Shown piece by piece: positions 2,145 through 18,210 of a DNA stretch of 64,000 bases. Position numbers and translations under genes: made by a program. The stretch lies in sequence record OR062946.1; one strand, written 5' to 3'. The notes under the pieces are model-generated. The model worked only from the letters and a program-made list of their open reading frames with translations, ran no database searches and had not been told where the DNA came from. The stretch's first letter is position 1. Every line of letters begins with the position of its first letter. Source of the stretch: Escherichia phage 310Ecol104PP.

Positions 2145-2894
2145 ATGGCAAACATTATTCGTTGTAAATTACCAGATGGTGTTCATCGTTTTAAACCATT
2201 TACGGTAGAAGATTATCGAGATTTTTTGTTAGTTCGAAACGATATAGAACATCGGTCACCACAAGAACAAAAAGAAATAATTGCTGATTTAATTGCTGAT
2301 TATTTTGGAGACTATCCGAAGACTTGGCAACCATTTATATTTTTGCAGGTATTTGTAGGGTCAATAGGTAAAACTAAAGTACCAGTCACATTTGTGTGTC
2401 CAAAATGTAAAAAAGAAAAGACAGTTCCATTTGAAATATATCAAAAAGAATTAAAGGAACCTGTTTTTGATGTAGCTAATGTTAAAATTAAATTAAAGTT
2501 TCCTTCTGAGTTTTATGAAAATAAAGCAAAGATGATTACTGAAAATATTCATTCTGTTCAAGTAGATGAAATGTGGTATGATTGGAAGGAAATTAGCGAG
2601 TCCAGTCAAATAGAACTCGTTGACGCCATCGAGATAGAAACATTAGAAAAAATTCTCGATGCAATGAATCCTATTAATTTAACTCTACATATGTCATGCT
2701 GTAATAAGTACATTAAAAAATACACTGATATAGTAGACGTGTTTAAGCTATTAGTTAACCCAGATGAGATATTTACTTTTTATCAAATTAATCACACACT
2801 CGTAAAAAGCAATTATAGCTTAAATTCAATAATGAAAATGATTCCTGCTGAGCGCGGATTCGTATTAAAACTGATTGAGAAGGATAAACAATAA
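2145..2894 (+). CDS. 51: baseplate hub assembly protein gp51
   Basis: 249-aa ORF, size and synteny match T4 gp51. Confidence 0.85.
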
Positions 2895-4069
2895 TGAGTA
2901 TGTTGCAACGCCCCGGATATCCAAATCTCAGCGTTAAATTATTTGATAGCTACGACGCTTGGAGTAATAATAGATTTGTTGAATTAGCTGCTACTATTAC
3001 CACATTAACTATGCGTGATTCTCTTTATGGCCGAAATGAAGGAATGCTGCAGTTTTATGATTCTAAAAACATCCATACAAAAATGGATGGAAATGAAATA
3101 ATTCAGATTTCTGTAGCTAATGCAAATGATATTAATAATGTTAAAACACGAATTTATGGATGTAAGCATTTTTCCGTGTCAGTAGATTCAAAAGGTGATA
3201 ACATCATTGCTATTGAATTGGGAACTATTCATTCTATAGAAAATCTTAAATTTGGTAGACCATTTTTCCCTGATGCAGGTGAATCTATAAAAGAAATGCT
3301 TGGTGTCATTTATCAGGATCGCACATTATTAACTCCAGCAATAAATGCTATAAATGCTTATGTTCCTGATATTCCATGGACTAGCACATTTGAAAACTAT
3401 TTGTCATATGTAAGAGAAGTTGCTCTAGCTGTAGGAAGCGACAAATTTGTATTTGTATGGCAAGACATCATGGGAGTTAACATGATGGACTATGATATGA
3501 TGATAAATCAAGAACCATATCCAATGATTGTCGGTGAGCCATCTTTAATAGGTCAATTCATCCAAGAATTAAAATACCCATTAGCATATGATTTTGTTTG
3601 GTTGACTAAATCGAATCCTCACAAACGCGACCCAATGAAAAATGCTACTATCTATGCTCATTCATTTTTAGATTCTTCATTGCCAATGATTACTACAGGA
3701 AAGGGTGAAAACTCTATTGTAGTGTCAAGGTCAGGTGCTTATTCTGAAATGACTTATAGGAATGGATATGAAGAAGCTATTCGTCTTCAAACTATGGCAC
3801 AATATGACGGTTATGCTAAATGTTCTACTGTCGGTAATTTTAACTTGACTCCTGGCGTTAAAATTATTTTTAATGATAGTAAAAACCAATTTAAAACAGA
3901 ATTTTACGTTGATGAAGTTATCCATGAATTATCCAATAATAATTCAGTAACTCATCTATATATGTTCACTAATGCAACGAAACTGGAAACAATAGACCCA
4001 GTTAAGGTTAAAAATGAATTTAAATCTGATACTACCACTGAAGAAAGTAGTTCTTCCAATAAGCAATAA
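2894..4069 (+). CDS. 27: baseplate hub protein gp27
   Basis: 391-aa ORF, size and synteny match T4 gp27. Confidence 0.9.
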
Positions 4070-8734: not shown

Positions 8735-8764
8735 ACTATAACACAACACGAGGGACTTGTAAAC
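8735..8764 (-). promoter_or_regulatory. early-type promoter (GTTTAC -35, 18-nt spacer, TATAGT -10)
   Basis: Read on minus strand; near-identical copy upstream of alc at 24035-24064. Confidence 0.5.
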
Positions 8765-10821
8765 TACATCTTGAACTTTTTAGACATTCCGTTGATGTTA
8801 ATCAAAGAAGCCAAGATTTGAGAAACTTCGTTTTCCTCTTCTTTTGATTCTTCTACAAGGAATTGATTAAATCCAGCCATTGGACGAACTTCACCAGTTT
8901 CCATTAAATGGTCGCCATCATATACTGATTCTTCTAATTGTTCAGAAGGAGGAACGATTGTACCTTCGATTAGATACTTGTTATAAGCAGTTTCTTTCAT
9001 AAAGTACGTACTTACTTTATTAATCTTCAGTAAAATTCCACGCGGTAGAATAACTTCAGCTTCTGATGGAAATCCTGATAAATGACCTGGAACGATAACT
9101 TTGATTCGCTCAGCTCCTTTAATTACCATACCCACGCTAGTTTCAGCATCTTCAATGGCATATGTAGAATGACTACCCATATGCATTAAATCTTCTGCAT
9201 CAACGGAACCTTCTCCTTCGCCAGAAAATACTGCGCCGGAATCATCTAGAGCCATATAGTTTTTACCATGCTCACCGAAGATATTTGGTTTAAGTGATGT
9301 CGATACGAAGTTCTTGAAATAGAACATTTTGTTTTCAATGTTATGACGCAAAGTTTTAAAGGTAACTTCTTGTCCACGGTAAAGTGTAGTTCCTGGAGGA
9401 AGAACTGATCCTTTGGCAAAGGCAGAATCCAACGTCTCGATGTGCTTAATAGCTCGTTCCATATATTCTTCACGGGTAGAATCTGGTTTACCCAAAAGGA
9501 ACGAGTTCATTTCAACATATGAATCTGCACAATAATCTTCAATTACATCAGATTCAGCTTGGGTTAATCCTTTTGGAGTTACTTCGGTGCTTGCGTATTC
9601 ATATGCCTGGGCAGCAGATTCATTAATCAATTTATAAATGCCATTCATGACAAATTGAATAATAGCTGTCTTTTCATCTGGCGTAGCTTTAGAACCTTTA
9701 ACTAAATCATTAATAATTTTCTTAATAACATCAAAGCTATTAGAAATATTAATGTCAGCAAGATCGCTTAAAATTTTATCAGTTTTATAATCAAAGAATT
9801 CTTTATTCTTTAAATATTCTTGAGAACCTTGATATGTTATATCGCTCTGCAACTTGATAGATGGATCACGTAAACGTGCATGGGCTAATGCAATATGATT
9901 TCGGAAGTTTTCTAGTTCGTAATCGCTAGATTTAAAACGAGAAGCACTTCTCATACCACCAATAGCTCCTTTGCTGAAGTTTGAACCAATCTGAATAACG
10001 CCAGAGTTCATTGGTCCTTCTGCTTTATACACCGGAACTTTAGATTCAAACTCTTGATATTTCTTAGCAGCGAAGCTATCACCATGAAGTGAAGCATCGA
10101 CAGTAGAATATTGAGCTTGTGCTGCTAATCGACGACTAATTTTAGTTTTCTGAATAACAGCTTGATCAGTGCGCTTATCATTTTCTAAAGCAATAGAAGC
10201 AGCAACAGCGACAGCTTTAGGAACAGCATTACCTGTTTTAACGTCTACATAAACATCACCAACCTTTGATTCAACTTTTGTGAATAACTCAGTTGAAATA
10301 GGAGGTACACCTGGAATGTCTTCTAAATTGGCATTTTTACGGTAAACCATAATATATGCATATTTCTTATCATAGTCCCAGATTTCCTTTAAGAGAACAT
10401 ATCGACCTGCTCCTTTAGTACGTACTAAACGGTCAGCAATAACTTGCATTTGACGAGCTGCGCCATTTGTTTTACTCTTTAGTACGCGGAATAGGCATGC
10501 GTCGATTTTATACTGTTTCATTGTTTGAAGAGCAGTATCAAAAACAGCATTAATGACGCCAATTGGATTTCCACCCAAGTTTCTAAGCTTAACCAGCGAT
10601 AATTTCTCGTTGACACCTATCATTACGATATGCATCATTTTATCGCCCGGCTTAACGTTTTTATTTGTATCACCGCCAGAGGTGTATGTACAAAATCTAA
10701 ATCCAGGAAGCACGCTTTCTTCACCGGCTTGAATAGCAAAAATTTGAGGTATTTTATGCTTAGGATTTAAGTTAACAACCGGCGCCGAAGCGCCGTCAAA
10801 TAATTCTGTAATAAGTTCCAT
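8764..10821 (-). CDS. Alt-family ADP-ribosyltransferase paralog (685 aa)
   Basis: N-terminus MELITELFD.. nearly identical to Alt; C-terminal half has R-S-E motifs (LYRGQ, FVSTSL, EAEVILP). Confidence 0.8.
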   Translation of the reverse strand: MELITELFDGASAPVVNLNPKHKIPQIFAIQAGEESVLPGFRFCTYTSGGDTNKNVKPGDKMMHIVMIGVNEKLSLVKLRNLGGNPIGVINAVFDTALQTMKQYKIDACLFRVLKSKTNGAARQMQVIADRLVRTKGAGRYVLLKEIWDYDKKYAYIMVYRKNANLEDIPGVPPISTELFTKVESKVGDVYVDVKTGNAVPKAVAVAASIALENDKRTDQAVIQKTKISRRLAAQAQYSTVDASLHGDSFAAKKYQEFESKVPVYKAEGPMNSGVIQIGSNFSKGAIGGMRSASRFKSSDYELENFRNHIALAHARLRDPSIKLQSDITYQGSQEYLKNKEFFDYKTDKILSDLADINISNSFDVIKKIINDLVKGSKATPDEKTAIIQFVMNGIYKLINESAAQAYEYASTEVTPKGLTQAESDVIEDYCADSYVEMNSFLLGKPDSTREEYMERAIKHIETLDSAFAKGSVLPPGTTLYRGQEVTFKTLRHNIENKMFYFKNFVSTSLKPNIFGEHGKNYMALDDSGAVFSGEGEGSVDAEDLMHMGSHSTYAIEDAETSVGMVIKGAERIKVIVPGHLSGFPSEAEVILPRGILLKINKVSTYFMKETAYNKYLIEGTIVPPSEQLEESVYDGDHLMETGEVRPMAGFNQFLVEESKEEENEVSQILASLININGMSKKFKM

Positions 10822-10824
10822 GAT

Positions 10825-12921
10825 TTATCCTTGAACGAACTTGTAAGGCATGTTTGTAATATCTATGCAAGACGCAATAATTCCAAGAGATGATTCTACT
10901 TTCTGTTTAATATTTGATGAAACAAATGATGCAAAGTCAACTCTGTCTTCTATTTCAATATCACCTGTCATTGCAACTACTTCGCCGGTTTCCATTAAAT
11001 GGTCTCCGTCATAGATTACCGATTCAGTGAGTTCTTCTGTGGTCATAACTTCAGCTTGAATGAGTTTTGTATTATTAGACGTGGTTCCGTCATTATTAGA
11101 AGCATCAGTTATTTTATTAACTTTAACCATCAATCCGCGCGGTAGAATAACTTCAGCTTCTGTTGCTATTCCGAGACTTCCTGGATATACAACATTAACT
11201 TTATGAGCTCCATCAATTGCCCATCCTATTTGAACTTTAACGTATTCAGGATTTTCTTTATACGCTCTTATTTCGTTTGGATTAATAGTTATTCCTTCTT
11301 CATTTTTATCAACCGTTAATTCGTTACGAGCTTCTGGTTCTAAAAGACCAATACCAGCATGTGTAATTCCAAAACGCCCAAAAATGATAGGAGTTAAAGA
11401 AGTAGATACAAAATTTCTGAAATAGAACACTTTATTTTTAACTAGTGCTTCGTATATAGGAGCAGTCATACTTTGAGCACGATAAACTGTGATGCCTTCC
11501 GGTATGCGGTCACCATTTTCAAAAGCTGAATCTAAGTTATTTATAGCAGATTCAATTTCTTTTTCACTCATTACATCATATCGTTCTGGATTGTAACGAC
11601 CTAAAAGAAGATTATTAATGTCAGTATATCCTGAACCACAATACTCTCTAATGCCGCGCTTTTGTGATGGAGTATATTTAGAACCATCACGGGCAATAGT
11701 AATATCAATCATTGGACCTGCACCAATTCCAGAAAAACTATAAATCATTCTTTTGAGGAATTTAGTTTTTGCTGCGTTCCAGGAATTTTTAGTCATTTCT
11801 TCCCAGACTTCATCTGGCTGCCCTTTACGAGTTTTATTATGTTTATCAAGCCAATTATCTTTATATTCTTCAAAGAGTTGATTAACAGCTGCTGCGTATT
11901 TCTCTAAACATTTTATTGAAGTAGTTGGTTCATTTTTAATCGCATTAAGAATTACATCTTTAATTTTTTCAGAAACTTCATTAACCTCACTTTTTGAAAA
12001 GAATTTATAGTCATAATGAAGTTCATTCGCAGTTCCTTCGGCAATAATTTTTGCTGCCTTAGTTTTAGAAGCTAATGAATTAATTCCAAGCTTCATTTCT
12101 TCTGCTTCGGGAATTAAAGGAGCGGTAGCAGGTTTATTGAAATTAGCTGCGGTAGATTCATACTTCTGGAATAATTCACTTTCAAATCTAGAAGATTCCA
12201 ATGATTGACTTTGCGCAATTGCTCTACGGGAAATTTTAACTTTAACGATTACAGCTTGGTCAGAACGTTTATCATTTTCTTGTGCAATAGATGCTGCAAT
12301 TGCCTCATTTTTAGTTACTTGAGCTCCAGTATCTTTATTGATATAAACATCGCCGACTTTCGATTCAACTTTAGTAAAGAGCTCGGTACTAATTTCCGGA
12401 ACTCCTGGAATGTCTTCTAGTGATACATTTTTGCGATGTATAAGAATATATGCATACTTTTTATCATAATCCCAGAGTTCCTTAAGAAGGACGTATCTGC
12501 CACCTGAACGACTACGGATAAGTCTATCAGCAATAACTTGAATTTGTCGAGCTTGACCAGCGGTTTTAGACTTAAGAATACGAAGCATACAAGCATCAAT
12601 TTTATACTGACGCATTGTTTGCATTGCAACAGTAAAAACTGAATTGATATAATTAATTGGGCTTGGACCGAGACCTTTTAATTTAGCAATTGAACCTTTG
12701 GCAGTTAATGTAAAAGGAACAATATGCATCATTTTATCGCCCATCTTTAAATCGCGATTAGTATCACCTCCAGATGTATAGGTGCATAAACGAAAGCCTG
12801 GTTGTTCAATTGCATCATCAACACGAACTGAAAAAATTTGCGGTATTTTCTTCTTTGGATTTAAGTTTGTAATCGGAAGAGTAGTATCTTCGTCAAATAA
12901 TTCTGTAATAAGTTCCATCAT
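10825..12921 (-). CDS. alt: Alt ADP-ribosyltransferase, packaged into the head
   Basis: 698-aa ORF; N-terminal MELITELFDED capsid-targeting-like sequence; motifs VYRAQ, FVSTSL, EAEVILP; sits between 54 and 30. Confidence 0.9.
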   Translation of the reverse strand: MMELITELFDEDTTLPITNLNPKKKIPQIFSVRVDDAIEQPGFRLCTYTSGGDTNRDLKMGDKMMHIVPFTLTAKGSIAKLKGLGPSPINYINSVFTVAMQTMRQYKIDACMLRILKSKTAGQARQIQVIADRLIRSRSGGRYVLLKELWDYDKKYAYILIHRKNVSLEDIPGVPEISTELFTKVESKVGDVYINKDTGAQVTKNEAIAASIAQENDKRSDQAVIVKVKISRRAIAQSQSLESSRFESELFQKYESTAANFNKPATAPLIPEAEEMKLGINSLASKTKAAKIIAEGTANELHYDYKFFSKSEVNEVSEKIKDVILNAIKNEPTTSIKCLEKYAAAVNQLFEEYKDNWLDKHNKTRKGQPDEVWEEMTKNSWNAAKTKFLKRMIYSFSGIGAGPMIDITIARDGSKYTPSQKRGIREYCGSGYTDINNLLLGRYNPERYDVMSEKEIESAINNLDSAFENGDRIPEGITVYRAQSMTAPIYEALVKNKVFYFRNFVSTSLTPIIFGRFGITHAGIGLLEPEARNELTVDKNEEGITINPNEIRAYKENPEYVKVQIGWAIDGAHKVNVVYPGSLGIATEAEVILPRGLMVKVNKITDASNNDGTTSNNTKLIQAEVMTTEELTESVIYDGDHLMETGEVVAMTGDIEIEDRVDFASFVSSNIKQKVESSLGIIASCIDITNMPYKFVQG

Positions 12922-12942
12922 AGCCTCTCTAGTGTTTATTCT

Positions 12943-12950
12943 ATTTATAA
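12943..12950 (-). promoter_or_regulatory. late promoter upstream of alt
   Basis: TATAAATA on minus strand about 25 nt upstream of the alt ATG. Confidence 0.5.
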
Positions 12951-14619: not shown

Positions 14620-14885
14620 TGTTCATCCTTTAGAGTTTGGTTTACAGCTCTATTATAAATCAATTCATCATTAAGCTCAGTCAAAGACCTATGGTACGTG
14701 GTTCTAACTTTATTTCCTTGCATCCAGTGTTTGACGTAAATGAAACCTTGCTCTACACATTTTTTAAAAATTCGTTCGTCTTTTTGAGCTCGGAATTCTG
14801 GATTGCATCTAAAAAATTGATTTACGTGACCGTAATCACGTGTAGTATTACCTTCATTTTCATAAATAGTGTGAACGACAAACAT
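14616..14885 (-). CDS. hypothetical 89-aa protein (30.1 position)
   Basis: ORF overlapping the ligase start by 4 nt. Confidence 0.5.
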   Translation of the reverse strand: MFVVHTIYENEGNTTRDYGHVNQFFRCNPEFRAQKDERIFKKCVEQGFIYVKHWMQGNKVRTTYHRSLTELNDELIYNRAVNQTLKDEQ

Positions 14886-15748
14886 TAGAATGCTCCTTGG
14901 AAAATATTATCACCACTAGTAAATCTATTAAAATACCCTGCATCACCAGGCTTAGTATAACTCCACGTATGGAATGGATTCATATGATACGGGTGTGTAT
15001 AATATGGATTATATGGATGTGTATAATATGGATTATACGGATTAAATCCAGGAGTTCTCCAGGTAGTGTTCCAACGAAAAGAATCGTTTTTAACCATCTT
15101 CTCAATTACATCTTTTATAGCTTTTTCACTATCAAAACTTTCTTTATTTTCCTTCGGTGAAAAAAGCTTATTTTCTACATCATTCCATGTATAAACTCGC
15201 TGAGCGGTTTTTGGAATATTGTCACGCTCTCCTCGCGCCATCCAATAAACAGGAACATTTAATATTTCACTCGCATGATCGCAGTGGTGAGCGAGATCGT
15301 CAATATAACAAATTACGTTATATTTCTCTTTTGCCTTTTTGAACAACTCTTCTTTTGAAGAATCATGACCACACATCATTACTTCTGAGAAGGCACCAGG
15401 AAAAAGAGCATTCAAATTAAATTGACGATTCAACAGAGCGTCAATAGAATCACCCAACGCTGTAACAGCTACAAAATTATAATCTTCTTTTAATTTGTTA
15501 ATTACGCACAGGGCGTCTTTATATGGAGACAAATAACGAATAAAATCTGAACGATTGTATTTTTCAATTAACTTGACGCCAAGTTCTTCATCACAATTAA
15601 AGAGTTTACCCGGAGAAATAAATTTCTCATCTTGAATCATTTTTAAAATATGTTCTAACGGAAGATTATATTTCTGAGCAAAATAAGGAAGGCCTGATTG
15701 CCAGCTTAAACATACTCCATCAATATCAGTTAAAATAGTAGGCTTCAT
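14885..15748 (-). CDS. HAD-superfamily phosphatase-like protein with Tyr/Pro-rich C-terminal tail (30.2 position)
   Basis: N-terminal DIDGV motif typical of HAD hydrolases; tail NPYNPYYTHPYNPYYTHPY. Confidence 0.65.
   Translation of the reverse strand: MKPTILTDIDGVCLSWQSGLPYFAQKYNLPLEHILKMIQDEKFISPGKLFNCDEELGVKLIEKYNRSDFIRYLSPYKDALCVINKLKEDYNFVAVTALGDSIDALLNRQFNLNALFPGAFSEVMMCGHDSSKEELFKKAKEKYNVICYIDDLAHHCDHASEILNVPVYWMARGERDNIPKTAQRVYTWNDVENKLFSPKENKESFDSEKAIKDVIEKMVKNDSFRWNTTWRTPGFNPYNPYYTHPYNPYYTHPYHMNPFHTWSYTKPGDAGYFNRFTSGDNIFQGAF
14994..15037. repeat. 24-bp tandem duplication inside the 30.2 coding region
   Basis: tgtgtataatatggattata occurs twice with a 4-nt spacer, encoding the repeated peptide. 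Confidence 0.7.
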
Positions 15749-16209
15749 AGAGAGTCTCTTAATAGATTTAACACATCAATAAATTCAGCTTCGGTTAGTA
15801 TTGTATCATCTTTTGTTAGACCACTAGCCATGCTGTGCTTCAAAACTTTTCCTTTCGAGGCTTGTAATGCATCGCGAAAGCCCTTGTTTTGGAACGCTGC
15901 TTCAAAATATGCATTTGTGTATAATTCTTTCCATGCTTCGGAATATCTTGAAAACGGAGTTCCAAGCCAGAACAACGTGCCACGGTCCTGAGCTCTAGCA
16001 TAAGCTCGTCCAGCTTGTTGGGCGGCAAGCCCGGATAACCCAAATATACGACGCTGTTGTTCAACATTTTTCACCTTGCATCCTTGGAGGAATCCTTCGA
16101 GACCTCCAAATTGAATACCATCCATAACGAAAGGCCATTGGGCGAAATTACTTAATGCGCATGATGGCCATCTAAAATTGCTTCTTATCTCTAGCTCAGA
16201 CATTTTCAA
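15745..16209 (-). CDS. NADAR/YbiA-like protein (30.3 position)
   Basis: 154-aa ORF with ALSNFAQWPF motif recalled from NADAR (DUF1768) proteins; assignment from motif memory only. Confidence 0.5.
   Translation of the reverse strand: MKMSELEIRSNFRWPSCALSNFAQWPFVMDGIQFGGLEGFLQGCKVKNVEQQRRIFGLSGLAAQQAGRAYARAQDRGTLFWLGTPFSRYSEAWKELYTNAYFEAAFQNKGFRDALQASKGKVLKHSMASGLTKDDTILTEAEFIDVLNLLRDSL
15840..16067 (-). CDS. embedded alternative-frame ORF within 30.3 (30.3'-like)
   Basis: 75-aa same-strand ORF in a different frame; T4 is remembered to annotate a similar embedded gene. Confidence 0.25.
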   Translation of the reverse strand: MLNNSVVYLGYPGLPPNKLDELMLELRTVARCSGLELRFQDIPKHGKNYTQMHILKQRSKTRAFAMHYKPRKEKF

Positions 16210-16402
16210 TACTTATAATTTCAACATCAGCCCAATGACCATAGCAAGGAAGACGAAATTCAACTGGCCAGTTAGGGTCCTTTTCTAATATAATAGACTG
16301 AACTTGTGGCTCTTCATATTCATCGGTATACGGACCTTTATACGTTACTTTATATGTGACCTTAATGTACTGAATTCCAAAAATCTTATTAATTATATTC
16401 AT
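16196..16402 (-). CDS. hypothetical 68-aa protein (30.4 position)
   Basis: ORF in a tightly packed same-strand train. Confidence 0.5.
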   Translation of the reverse strand: MNIINKIFGIQYIKVTYKVTYKGPYTDEYEEPQVQSIILEKDPNWPVEFRLPCYGHWADVEIISIENV

Positions 16403-16899: not shown

Positions 16900-16915
16900 A
16901 GGGGCCGAAGCCCCT
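16900..16915. terminator. C(UUCG)G-type hairpin between 30.7 and 30.6
   Basis: aGGGGC-cgaa-GCCCCt inverted repeat. Confidence 0.45.
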
Positions 16916-17729: not shown

Positions 17730-17756
17730 TTTATTCTCCTTTGTTTGTGTAAGATA

Positions 17757-17786
17757 ATACTATCACAAAGGAGCCATACTGTAAAC
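17757..17786 (-). promoter_or_regulatory. early-type promoter upstream of 30.8
   Basis: GTTTAC, 17-18 nt, TAGTAT-like -10 on minus strand. Confidence 0.4.
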
Positions 17787-17814
17787 AACTTTGTGCAATC
17801 TTTGGAAAATAAAA

Positions 17815-17836
17815 AAGGACTCCCGAAGGAGTCCTT
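17815..17836 (-). terminator. intrinsic terminator after 30.9
   Basis: 9-bp stem AAGGACTCC-cgaa-GGAGTCCTT followed on the minus transcript by a U-run. Confidence 0.6.
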
Positions 17837-17839
17837 AAC

Positions 17840-18016
17840 TTATGCTTTCTGCTTACCAAAACGAGAAGCATCATCTCGAAGAACCGCACGTGCTCGGCGC
17901 ATGATCTTCTCAACAGTTTGATTGATACGAGAGTTCGACCCACGCTTGTAACCAGCGCGTTTAGAATCACCAACTTTCTTTTCAACTGCTTTCTTTGCTT
18001 TAGCTTGTTTTGCCAT
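17840..18016 (-). CDS. small basic protein (30.9 position), start taken at MAKQAK
   Basis: Lys/Arg-rich ORF; ORF-track start 14 codons upstream lacks a ribosome-binding site. Confidence 0.45.
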   Translation of the reverse strand: MAKQAKAKKAVEKKVGDSKRAGYKRGSNSRINQTVEKIMRRARAVLRDDASRFGKQKA

Positions 18017-18210
18017 TATAAATTCTCTTTTAAATGAAAATGCAGGACTTATTGGCATTGCCTGCGCAAGCCCTCAAGGGGTACTTAGGTTTTAAATATT
18101 TACCGACAGGATAACCATAAACCTCGTCAACATTCAAGAGGTACACCGTAAAACAAAGTTCGACGGCTCCTCGATTTTAGCTCACACTAAGGCAGTGACT
18201 CTCCAATAAA

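What the first reader, a model, noticed from the sequence alone, without database searches (positions are those of the whole stretch)
15745..16209. NADAR-like protein in the same early operon as ligase and the Alt ADP-ribosyltransferases, with an embedded alternative-frame ORF
The 154-aa ORF carries an ALSNFAQWPF segment that I associate with NADAR (YbiA-like) domains, which are established to reverse ADP-ribosylation of guanine in DNA. Its placement a few genes from two ARTs suggests a phage-side module that writes and erases ADP-ribose marks, or counters host DarT-type toxins. A 75-aa ORF (15840-16067) is nested in another frame on the same strand.
Basis: inference. Interest (0 to 1): 0.5.

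Follow-up and report, generated by a model that had tools for sequence, protein, structure and literature searches.

The report
T4 gene 30.3: AdfN anti-DarT hydrolase
This is the T4-type phage gene 30.3 (now called adfN), a small enzyme already shown by experiment to strip ADP-ribose from phage DNA and so defeat the bacterial DarTG1 defence; the small ORF nested inside it is the long-annotated T4 30.3', which shows no sign of being a conserved protein.

Summary

The function is published. T4 gp30.3 hydrolyses guanine-ADP-ribose in vitro (Toxins 2024). It was renamed AdfN and shown to be necessary and sufficient to counter DarTG1 (Nat Commun 2025), and a T4 transposon screen confirmed this (bioRxiv 2025).

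The alternative of a writer/eraser module with Alt is not supported: alt insertions do not affect DarTG1 resistance, and alt has a late-promoter motif of its own.

The nested ORF is T4 30.3' (Pfam DUF2883). Its length is within chance given the AdfN sequence (P about 0.07-0.15). Wobble-site diversity is not reduced across it, and its conceptual protein diverges like a non-coding frame.

The parts
15745..16203 (-). adfN (T4 gene 30.3), 152 aa: a phage-type NADAR DNA ADP-ribosylglycohydrolase. The catalytic residues are E36 and K43, with His123 in the last strand. The C-terminal helix (138-151) is intact.
16204..16209 (-). TTG-AAA extension of the longest ORF. It is probably not translated as part of adfN and lies inside the end of gene 30.4.
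   Evidence: T4 annotation starts at the ATG. Homologues are 150-153 aa. The sequence is read.
15840..16067 (-). Nested +1-frame ORF, equal to T4 30.3' (75 aa, Pfam DUF2883). An SD-like AAGGTG lies 5 nt upstream of its ATG and is formed by the K43-V44 codons of adfN.
   Evidence: PF11097 at E 1.5e-44. T4 annotates it as 'internal translation, in a different reading frame'. Only 83% identical to T4 30.3', against 97% for AdfN. No extra constraint on adfN wobble sites. The ATG is lost in L002 and an internal stop occurs in L010.
16196..16402 (-). Gene 30.4, upstream of adfN. Its stop codon overlaps the adfN start by 8 nt, which suggests translational coupling.
   Evidence: ORF list and T4 annotation. 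Transposon insertions in T4 30.4 are moderately depleted on DarTG1 (log2FC -1.79, adj. p 0.014), as expected from polarity on adfN.
14885..15748 (-). Gene 30.2, downstream of adfN with an ATGA stop/start overlap. It has a HAD-fold, 5'(3')-deoxyribonucleotidase-like N-terminal domain and a low-complexity tail. It is not required for DarTG1 resistance.
   Evidence: AF2 pLDDT 95.7. Foldseek top hits are cdN/mdN and HAD hydrolases. Transposon log2FC -0.12, p 0.61 on DarTG1.
8764..12921 (-). Two tandem Alt-type ADP-ribosyltransferase genes: alt at 10825-12921 and a full-length paralogue at 8764-10821. They are neighbours of adfN, not functional partners in anti-DarT defence.
   Evidence: PF03496 at E 1.3e-37 and 6.1e-20. 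TATAAATA late-promoter motif at 12942-12949 (-). alt insertions are neutral on DarTG1.

Best explanation
The ORF is the orthologue of T4 gene 30.3, now called adfN (anti-DarT factor NADAR). It is an orphan, antitoxin-like enzyme consisting only of the NADAR core fold.

The proposed mechanism has three steps. When the phage infects a host carrying DarTG1, the DarT1 toxin ADP-ribosylates guanines in phage DNA and blocks replication. AdfN is made early, from the tightly packed 30.6-to-alt.1 gene array. It hydrolyses the N-glycosidic bond between guanine N2 and ADP-ribose, using E36, K43 and the phage-specific His123. This releases ADP-ribose and restores replicable DNA.

Because this allele is full length and keeps all catalytic residues, the phage is predicted to resist DarTG1.

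Shown here: orthology, fold, conserved residues, an intact C-terminus and gene order. Taken from published experiments on the 97%-identical T4 protein: hydrolase activity on G-ADPr, no activity on T-ADPr, and necessity and sufficiency against DarTG1. Inferred: that this particular allele behaves the same way, and the timing of its expression.

The nested 75-codon ORF (T4 30.3') is most likely a by-product of the Gly/Ala/Arg/Gln-rich AdfN sequence, which rarely creates +1-frame stops. It is most likely not a conserved second gene.
For: Orthology and family:
- Pfam PF08010 at E 1.5e-68.
- 97% identity over all 152 residues to T4 gp30.3, in the same gene order 30.4-30.3-30.2-30.1-30.

Fold and catalytic residues:
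- AF2 model pLDDT 90.7.
- A family profile hits YbiA at E 0.0025 over the catalytic motif.
- E36, K43 and H123 are invariant across 19 homologues down to 35% identity.
- The C-terminal helix 138-151 is present.

Published experiments on the T4 protein:
- gp30.3 hydrolyses G-ADPr but not T-ADPr (PMC11125620).
- AdfN-T4 restores RB69 plaquing on DarTG1. E36A and K43A mutants and a C-terminal truncation impair it, and the purified protein removes ADPr from DarT1-modified DNA (PMC11825919).
- T4 transposon insertions in 30.3 are lost on DarTG1 (log2FC -7.25; text).

Nested ORF:
- Chance P is 0.07-0.15.
- Wobble diversity is 0.279 inside the overlap against 0.284 outside.
- Nested-frame identity is 68.5%, against 67.6% for a non-coding control frame and 89% for AdfN.
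Against: No experiment was done on this allele. It has 5 substitutions relative to T4 (S67A, V82T, P89E, I104F, I125M), none at a conserved catalytic position.

The window protein itself does not reach any score against Pfam's NADAR model PF08719. The sequence link to NADAR is therefore weak and rests on fold comparison and on relatives.

AdfN-T4 fails to neutralise DarT1 in uninfected cells or to fully rescue non-T-even phages. The simple 'enzyme alone suffices' picture is therefore incomplete.

For the nested ORF, three points stop translation from being excluded. The frame is open in 14 of 15 close homologues. An ATG is kept within one codon in 13 of 15. An SD-like AAGGTG is invariant. In addition, the T4 record states 'internal translation'.
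Confidence: 0.93

Rival explanations
1. AdfN works with the neighbouring Alt ADP-ribosyltransferases as a phage-internal writer/eraser pair. Alt or its paralogue would add ADP-ribose marks, and AdfN would remove or proof-read them, for example by protecting phage nucleic acid from the phage's own ARTs.
For: The genes lie within 3-7 kb on the same strand. Iyer et al. 2022 noted that NADARs and ARTs are co-located in T4-like phages. This phage carries two intact Alt paralogues.
Against: Transposon insertions in alt are neutral on DarTG1 while 30.3 insertions are lost. Ectopic adfN alone rescues RB69. NADARs tested so far act on guanine (some on cytidine) ADPr in nucleic acids, whereas Alt is an arginine-directed protein ART packaged in the virion (established knowledge; note in the T4 record). 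alt has its own late-promoter motif. Distant AdfN homologues (L018-L025) are not next to alt-like genes.
Confidence: 0.04
2. The locus is a genuine pair of overlapping genes. 30.3' would be translated from its internal ATG and would contribute a function of its own, perhaps the T-even-specific context that AdfN needs.
For: The T4 record annotates 30.3' as an 'internal translation' product, and Pfam has a family for it. The +1 frame is open in 14 of 15 close homologues. An ATG is retained within one codon in 13 of 15, by two different codon solutions, and an SD-like AAGGTG is invariant upstream.
Against: The ORF length is within chance given the AdfN sequence (P 0.07-0.15). There is no reduction of synonymous diversity in adfN across the overlap, and the peptide diverges as fast as a non-coding frame. 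It is 83% identical to T4, against 97% for AdfN. Natural variants lose the ATG (L002) or gain a stop (L010). The SD-like box is made by the catalytic K43 codon plus V44. Ectopic adfN constructs already contain 30.3' yet still do not work outside T-even infection, so it cannot be the missing factor. I found no literature on it.
Confidence: 0.1
3. The physiological substrate is not DNA-guanine-ADPr but a soluble ADP-ribose derivative or nucleotide intermediate. AdfN would act in a pathway with the adjacent HAD-type nucleotidase gp30.2, as suggested by NADAR-HAD fusion proteins in other phages.
For: In L023 and L024 the Phage_30_3 domain is fused to an NT5C/HAD domain. gp30.2 has the same fold and is coupled to adfN by an ATGA overlap. 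The adjacency is kept in L017 at 45% identity. Iyer et al. 2022 favoured soluble substrates for phage NADARs. YbiA-type NADARs act on riboflavin intermediates (cited).
Against: There is direct in vitro and in vivo evidence for DNA G-ADPr hydrolysis and DarTG1 counter-defence. 30.2 insertions are neutral on DarTG1 (log2FC -0.12). NT5C fusions are rare, 2 of 50 long family members. A second, additional substrate is not excluded.
Confidence: 0.08

Closest known systems
AdfN / gp30.3 of Escherichia phage T4 (phage NADAR family, Pfam PF08010)
   Same: 97% identical over the full 152 aa, in the same position between 30.4 and 30.2. It has the same catalytic E36/K43/H123 and C-terminal helix, and the same nested 30.3' ORF at the same relative coordinates.
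   Different: Five conservative to moderate substitutions outside the conserved columns. The neighbouring alt region differs: this phage has a second intact alt paralogue, where T4 has only the remnants alt.-1 and alt.-2.
DarG1, the NADAR antitoxin of DarT1-NADAR (DarTG1) systems (e.g. Geobacter lovleyi NADAR, PDB 8BAT)
   Different: AdfN is orphan, with no adjacent DarT. It is core-only, lacking the extra N-terminal helix and sheets of DarG1 (PMC12945103). It has His instead of Asp in the last strand. AdfN-T4 cannot replace DarG1 in uninfected cells.
E. coli YbiA (PDB 2B3W) and PnNADAR (PDB 8BAU), the YbiA/NADAR families (Pfam PF08719)
   Different: About 20% identity. The window protein does not reach PF08719's threshold. 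There is Glu rather than His at the last-strand position. YbiA is also a riboflavin-intermediate N-glycosidase and sits in a LexA-controlled operon.
AdfM (T4 tk.4), the macrodomain anti-DarTG2 factor
   Same: Same strategy: a phage-borne orphan antitoxin-like hydrolase against a DarT toxin.
   Different: It has an unrelated fold (macrodomain) and is specific for thymidine-ADPr made by DarT2. It lies elsewhere in the genome.

Membership tests
Phage NADAR (gp30.3 / AdfN; Pfam PF08010 Phage_30_3) | Scores above the Pfam gathering threshold over the whole domain | tested here: met
   229 bits against a cut-off of 36, E 1.5e-68, profile positions 1-138 of 138
Phage NADAR (gp30.3 / AdfN; Pfam PF08010 Phage_30_3) | Orthologous position between 30.4 and 30.2, upstream of the ligase, in a T4-type genome | tested here: met
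   Gene order in the window matches T4 NC_000866. 97% identity.
Phage NADAR (gp30.3 / AdfN; Pfam PF08010 Phage_30_3) | Histidine in the last strand, where YbiA has Glu and DarG1 has Asp | tested here: met
   H123 is invariant in 19 homologues and lies in strand 120-123 of the model. The criterion comes from PMC11125620.
Phage NADAR (gp30.3 / AdfN; Pfam PF08010 Phage_30_3) | Full-length C-terminal helix (its loss in RB69 gives DarTG1 sensitivity) | tested here: met
   152 aa, identical to T4 from residue 126 to the end. Helix 138-151 in the model.
NADAR superfamily | YbiA/NADAR fold: helical core flanked by small beta-sheets | tested here: met
NADAR superfamily | Conserved catalytic Glu and Lys (E..Q..K motif) | tested here: met
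   E36 and K43 are invariant and align to the YbiA SEHYFQAQK motif. Mutational evidence for T4 is in PMC11825919.
NADAR superfamily | Match to Pfam PF08719 (NADAR) above the gathering score | tested here: not met
   No PF08719 hit for the window protein at E<=1. Only sub-threshold hits in 9 of 19 relatives, best E 1.6e-4. Pfam models the phage clade separately as PF08010.
NADAR superfamily | Hydrolysis of guanine-N2-ADP-ribose | not testable with these tools
   Published for the 97%-identical T4 protein (PMC11125620; PMC11825919; PMC12945103).
DarG1 antitoxin of DarTG1 toxin-antitoxin systems | Encoded next to a DarT1 toxin gene | tested here: not met
   The neighbours are the T4 genes 30.4 and 30.2. 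The only ARTs nearby are Alt-type PF03496 proteins.
DarG1 antitoxin of DarTG1 toxin-antitoxin systems | Aspartate at the last-strand catalytic position, and extra N-terminal elements | tested here: not met
   His123 occupies the position. The protein is 152 aa and core-only, against 219 aa for 8BAT.
T4 30.3' (Pfam PF11097 DUF2883) as a protein-coding gene | Sequence match to the family | tested here: met
   E 1.5e-44. Same relative coordinates as T4 30.3'.
T4 30.3' (Pfam PF11097 DUF2883) as a protein-coding gene | Purifying selection on the nested frame: reduced synonymous change in adfN across the overlap, and conservation above a non-coding frame | tested here: not met
   Wobble diversity is 0.279 in the overlap against 0.284 in the flanks. 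Nested-frame identity is 68.5% against 67.6% for the control frame.
T4 30.3' (Pfam PF11097 DUF2883) as a protein-coding gene | ORF longer than expected by chance given the host gene | tested here: not met
   P = 0.067-0.11 for an ATG-ORF of at least 75 codons. P = 0.13-0.18 for a stop-free stretch.

The most novel reading that the evidence does not exclude
The nested +1-frame ORF 30.3' is really translated. An invariant SD-like AAGGTG lies upstream, and an ATG is retained by two different codon solutions in two clades. It would yield a fast-evolving basic peptide with a role of its own, making adfN/30.3' a true overlapping gene pair in an anti-defence locus.
Probability: 0.1. Interest if true: 0.45.

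Novelty: already known. Interest (0 to 1): 0.1.

Why it matters
The case shows that a motif-level reading of raw sequence can recover a real anti-defence enzyme. The biology itself has been published since 2022-2025:
- bioinformatic identification of NADARs in T4-like phages;
- in vitro G-ADPr hydrolysis by T4 gp30.3;
- AdfN as the DarTG1 counter-defence;
- confirmation by a T4 transposon screen.

For this particular phage, the practical consequence is a prediction of DarTG1 resistance, because the allele is full length and catalytically intact.

One open question remains in the field: why AdfN-T4 works fully only during T-even infection. The one candidate examined here, gp30.2, is not supported by the published transposon data.

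Tried and rejected
1. gp30.2 as the unknown T-even cofactor of AdfN. The idea came from NADAR-NT5C fusions in L023 and L024, the HAD/deoxyribonucleotidase fold of gp30.2 and the ATGA coupling. It is rejected because T4 insertions in 30.2 are neutral on DarTG1 (log2FC -0.12, p 0.61) and the fusions are rare (2 of 50). I read the data rows of that supplementary sheet but not its header. I identify it as the DarTG1 comparison from its position in the file and from the -7.25 value for 30.3.

2. Direct sequence searches of the window protein against PDB chains and NCBIfam found nothing. gp30.2 also found nothing in PDB sequences, Pfam or NCBIfam.

3. The apparent C-terminal variation of AdfN in many Tequatroviruses (tblastn coverage 1-144) is an alignment-end effect. 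T6 is full length and identical at the C-terminus.

4. A literature search for DUF2883, PF11097, Phage_30_3 and PF08010 returned only unrelated papers. The 1994 Gene paper on the cd-30 region (PMID 8088550) is not held, so I could not read the original evidence for 30.3' translation.

5. The sigma-70 promoter scan of 8.5-19.5 kb is not above shuffled expectation (41 sites against 38.8). It cannot define the transcription unit.

Full report
**What is in the sequence**

Both ORFs lie on the minus strand. The longest-ORF listing gives 15745..16209 (154 aa, TTG start) and a 75-codon ATG-ORF at 15840..16067 in the +1 frame of the first.

The TTG start is an artefact of longest-ORF calling. T4 annotates 152 aa and close homologues are 150-153 aa. 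The ATG at 16203 overlaps the stop of the upstream gene in the string ATGTCTGA. The stop of the ORF overlaps the start of the next gene as ATGA (15745-15748).

**Where the window comes from**

The region is 97-98.7% identical at the DNA level to hundreds of Tequatrovirus genomes. The gene order matches T4: alt, alt.1, 30 (ligase), 30.1, 30.2, 30.3, 30.4 ... rIII, 31.

The ORF is T4 gene 30.3, with 147 of 152 residues identical. The nested ORF is T4 gene 30.3'. The T4 record annotates it at the same relative position as 'internal translation, in a different reading frame, within gene 30.3'. Pfam has families for both: PF08010 Phage_30_3 (E 1.5e-68) and PF11097 DUF2883 (E 1.5e-44).

**Is it a NADAR?**

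A plain Pfam scan does not say so. The window protein hits only PF08010. PF08719 (NADAR) appears only below threshold, in 9 of 19 relatives. Sequence search against PDB chains finds nothing with the single protein. With a 19-sequence profile, the top hit is E. coli YbiA (E 0.0025). The alignment pairs LSNFA..PF..DG....EGfLQ..K with YbiA FSNFAAWPIKVDGKTWPTSEHYFQAQK.

The fold test is decisive. An AlphaFold2 model (pLDDT 90.7, pTM 0.86) matches only three PDB entries well, and they are the three solved NADARs:

E36, K43 and H123 are invariant in homologues down to 35% identity. H123 lies in the last strand (120-123) and the C-terminal helix (138-151) is present.

**What is already published**

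- Iyer et al. 2022 (PMC9503650) catalogued NADARs in phages. [quoted passage not shown]
- Toxins 2024 (PMC11125620) named gp30.3 proteins as the phage NADAR family, defined by a histidine in the last strand. T4 gp30.3 hydrolysed guanosine-ADPr but not thymidine-ADPr, yet did not rescue cells from DarT1.
- Nat Commun 2025 (PMC11825919) mapped DarTG1 resistance of T2 and T4 to gene 30.3 and renamed it adfN. Ectopic adfN-T4 rescued RB69, whose own allele is truncated by 15 residues. E36A, K43A and the truncation impaired this. The purified protein removed ADP-ribose from DarT1-modified DNA. AdfN-T4 worked fully only in T-even infections, for unknown reasons.
- A T4 transposon screen (bioRxiv 10.1101/2025.11.20.689424) confirmed that 30.3/adfN insertions are lost on DarTG1. 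Its supplementary table gives log2FC -7.25 for 30.3.
- Toxins 2026 (PMC12945103) again tested the T4 NADAR and describes it as consisting solely of the core domain.

**The Alt neighbourhood**

Both large ORFs at 8764-10821 and 10825-12921 are Alt-type ARTs (PF03496). T4 has only remnants of the second copy (alt.-1 and alt.-2).

Genes 30.6 through alt.1 are packed with 1-8-nt overlaps. The depletion of insertions in 30.4 on DarTG1 (-1.79, adj. p 0.014) fits polarity or translational coupling onto adfN.

Between alt.1 and alt there is a 49-nt gap with the T4 late-promoter motif TATAAATA (12942-12949, minus strand). This is consistent with Alt being a packaged, late-made protein (established knowledge). 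The motif count in the window is at chance level, so this remains an inference.

Functionally, alt insertions are neutral on DarTG1 (-0.01). The writer/eraser idea has no support.

**The nested ORF**

I took 15 full-length close homologues: the window, T4 and 13 IMG/VR loci at 84-97% protein identity.

*Openness.* The +1 frame is open in 14 of 15, and L010 has a stop. The ATG is lost in L002 (ACG). In the 84-88% clade it is displaced by one codon.

*Chance.* I recoded the AdfN protein with synonymous codons drawn from this phage's usage, or permuted from the gene itself. This gives an ATG-ORF of at least 75 codons in the +1 frame in 11% and 6.7% of trials. The region is stop-free in 13-18% of trials, with 1.3-1.5 stops expected. 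The stretch is Gly/Ala/Arg/Gln-rich and more GC-rich than the flanks (0.46 against 0.39).

*Selection.* AdfN's wobble position is the second codon position of the nested frame, so every synonymous change in AdfN alters 30.3'. The table gives the comparison.

| Measure | Overlap / nested frame | Comparison |
|---|---|---|
| Wobble diversity at amino-acid-invariant codons | 0.279 | 0.284 in the flanks |
| Wobble diversity at 4/6-fold sites | 0.357 | 0.265 in the flanks |
| Mean pairwise identity of the translated frame | 68.5% (nested +1 frame) | 67.6% (non-coding +2 frame); 89% (AdfN) |

Against T4, the window's 30.3' is 83% identical while AdfN is 97% identical.

These results argue that 30.3' is not a conserved protein.

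*What remains in its favour.* There is an invariant SD-like AAGGTG 5 nt upstream, though it is formed by the catalytic K43 codon plus V44 GTG. An ATG is retained in 13 of 15 sequences. The T4 annotation notes internal translation, but I could not read its source.

**A lead followed and dropped**

Two metagenomic relatives (L023, L024) fuse the Phage_30_3 domain to an NT5C/HAD domain. gp30.2, coupled downstream of adfN, has no Pfam hit but folds confidently (pLDDT 95.7) as a HAD enzyme. Its closest matches are 5'(3')-deoxyribonucleotidases. This made gp30.2 a candidate for the unknown T-even factor that AdfN needs.

The published transposon data argue against it: 30.2 insertions are neutral on DarTG1 (-0.12, p 0.61). 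Among 50 long family members only 2 carry NT5C. The others carry ASCH, LRR or GDSL-lipase domains, or no recognisable second domain.

The family itself is large, with 1449 clusters at 50% identity at E<=1e-3.

**Verdict**

The nested ORF is a long-annotated feature that shows no evolutionary signature of coding. Interest is low.

Noticed in passing
window 8764-10821 (-): This is a second, full-length Alt-type ADP-ribosyltransferase paralogue (685 aa, PF03496), directly downstream of alt. T4 has only the decayed remnants alt.-1 and alt.-2 at this place.
   Followed up: partly
window 14885-15748 (-): gp30.2 has no Pfam, NCBIfam or PDB-sequence hit. Its first 196 residues nevertheless model confidently (pLDDT 95.7) as a HAD-fold enzyme, closest to 5'(3')-deoxyribonucleotidases. 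D8, D10, D150 and D151 are invariant. The C-terminal ~90 residues are a variable NPY/THPY low-complexity repeat.
   Followed up: yes
L023:1414-2469 and L024:1453-2415 (IMG/VR contigs): These loci encode single proteins that fuse a gp30.3-type NADAR domain to an NT5C/HAD nucleotidase domain. In L024 the gene is flanked by an ORF with an HCxxGxxR phosphatase signature (33-878) and an ORF starting with an ADP-ribosylglycohydrolase-like GGAIGDALG motif (2412-3437). I read the two flanking ORFs by eye only.
   Followed up: partly
protein family: The gp30.3-type NADAR family is large, with 1449 clusters at 50% identity at E<=1e-3. About a third of the best 150 members are 240-560 aa. Their partner domains include ASCH, BspA-type LRR, NT5C and GDSL lipase, and many extensions have no Pfam hit.
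   Followed up: partly
L028 (phage T6, NC_054907.1 127260-127718): The T6 RefSeq record labels its adfN orthologue 'prohead core protein' and a neighbouring small gene 'terminase large subunit'. These are evident transfer errors in annotation. Most other records call adfN 'hypothetical protein'.
   Followed up: no
window 16068-16080 (-): Val44 of AdfN is encoded by GTG in all 15 close homologues. This keeps an AAGGTG Shine-Dalgarno-like box 5 nt upstream of the nested ATG. I did not resolve whether this reflects selection or shared ancestry.
   Followed up: partly
window 17815-17836 (-) and 16900-16915: A strong terminator-like hairpin (AAGGACTCCTTCGGGAGTCCTT followed by a T-run) lies on the minus strand in the region corresponding to T4's 30.9-30.8 interval. 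A GC-rich palindromic hairpin lies in the 30.7-30.6 gap. These are probable boundaries of the early transcription units feeding adfN.
   Followed up: no
window 17731-18058 (-): Two overlapping minus-strand ORFs in different frames (17731-17985, 84 aa, TTG start; 17840-18058, 72 aa, ATG start) lie in the region corresponding to T4 30.9. I did not examine them.
   Followed up: no
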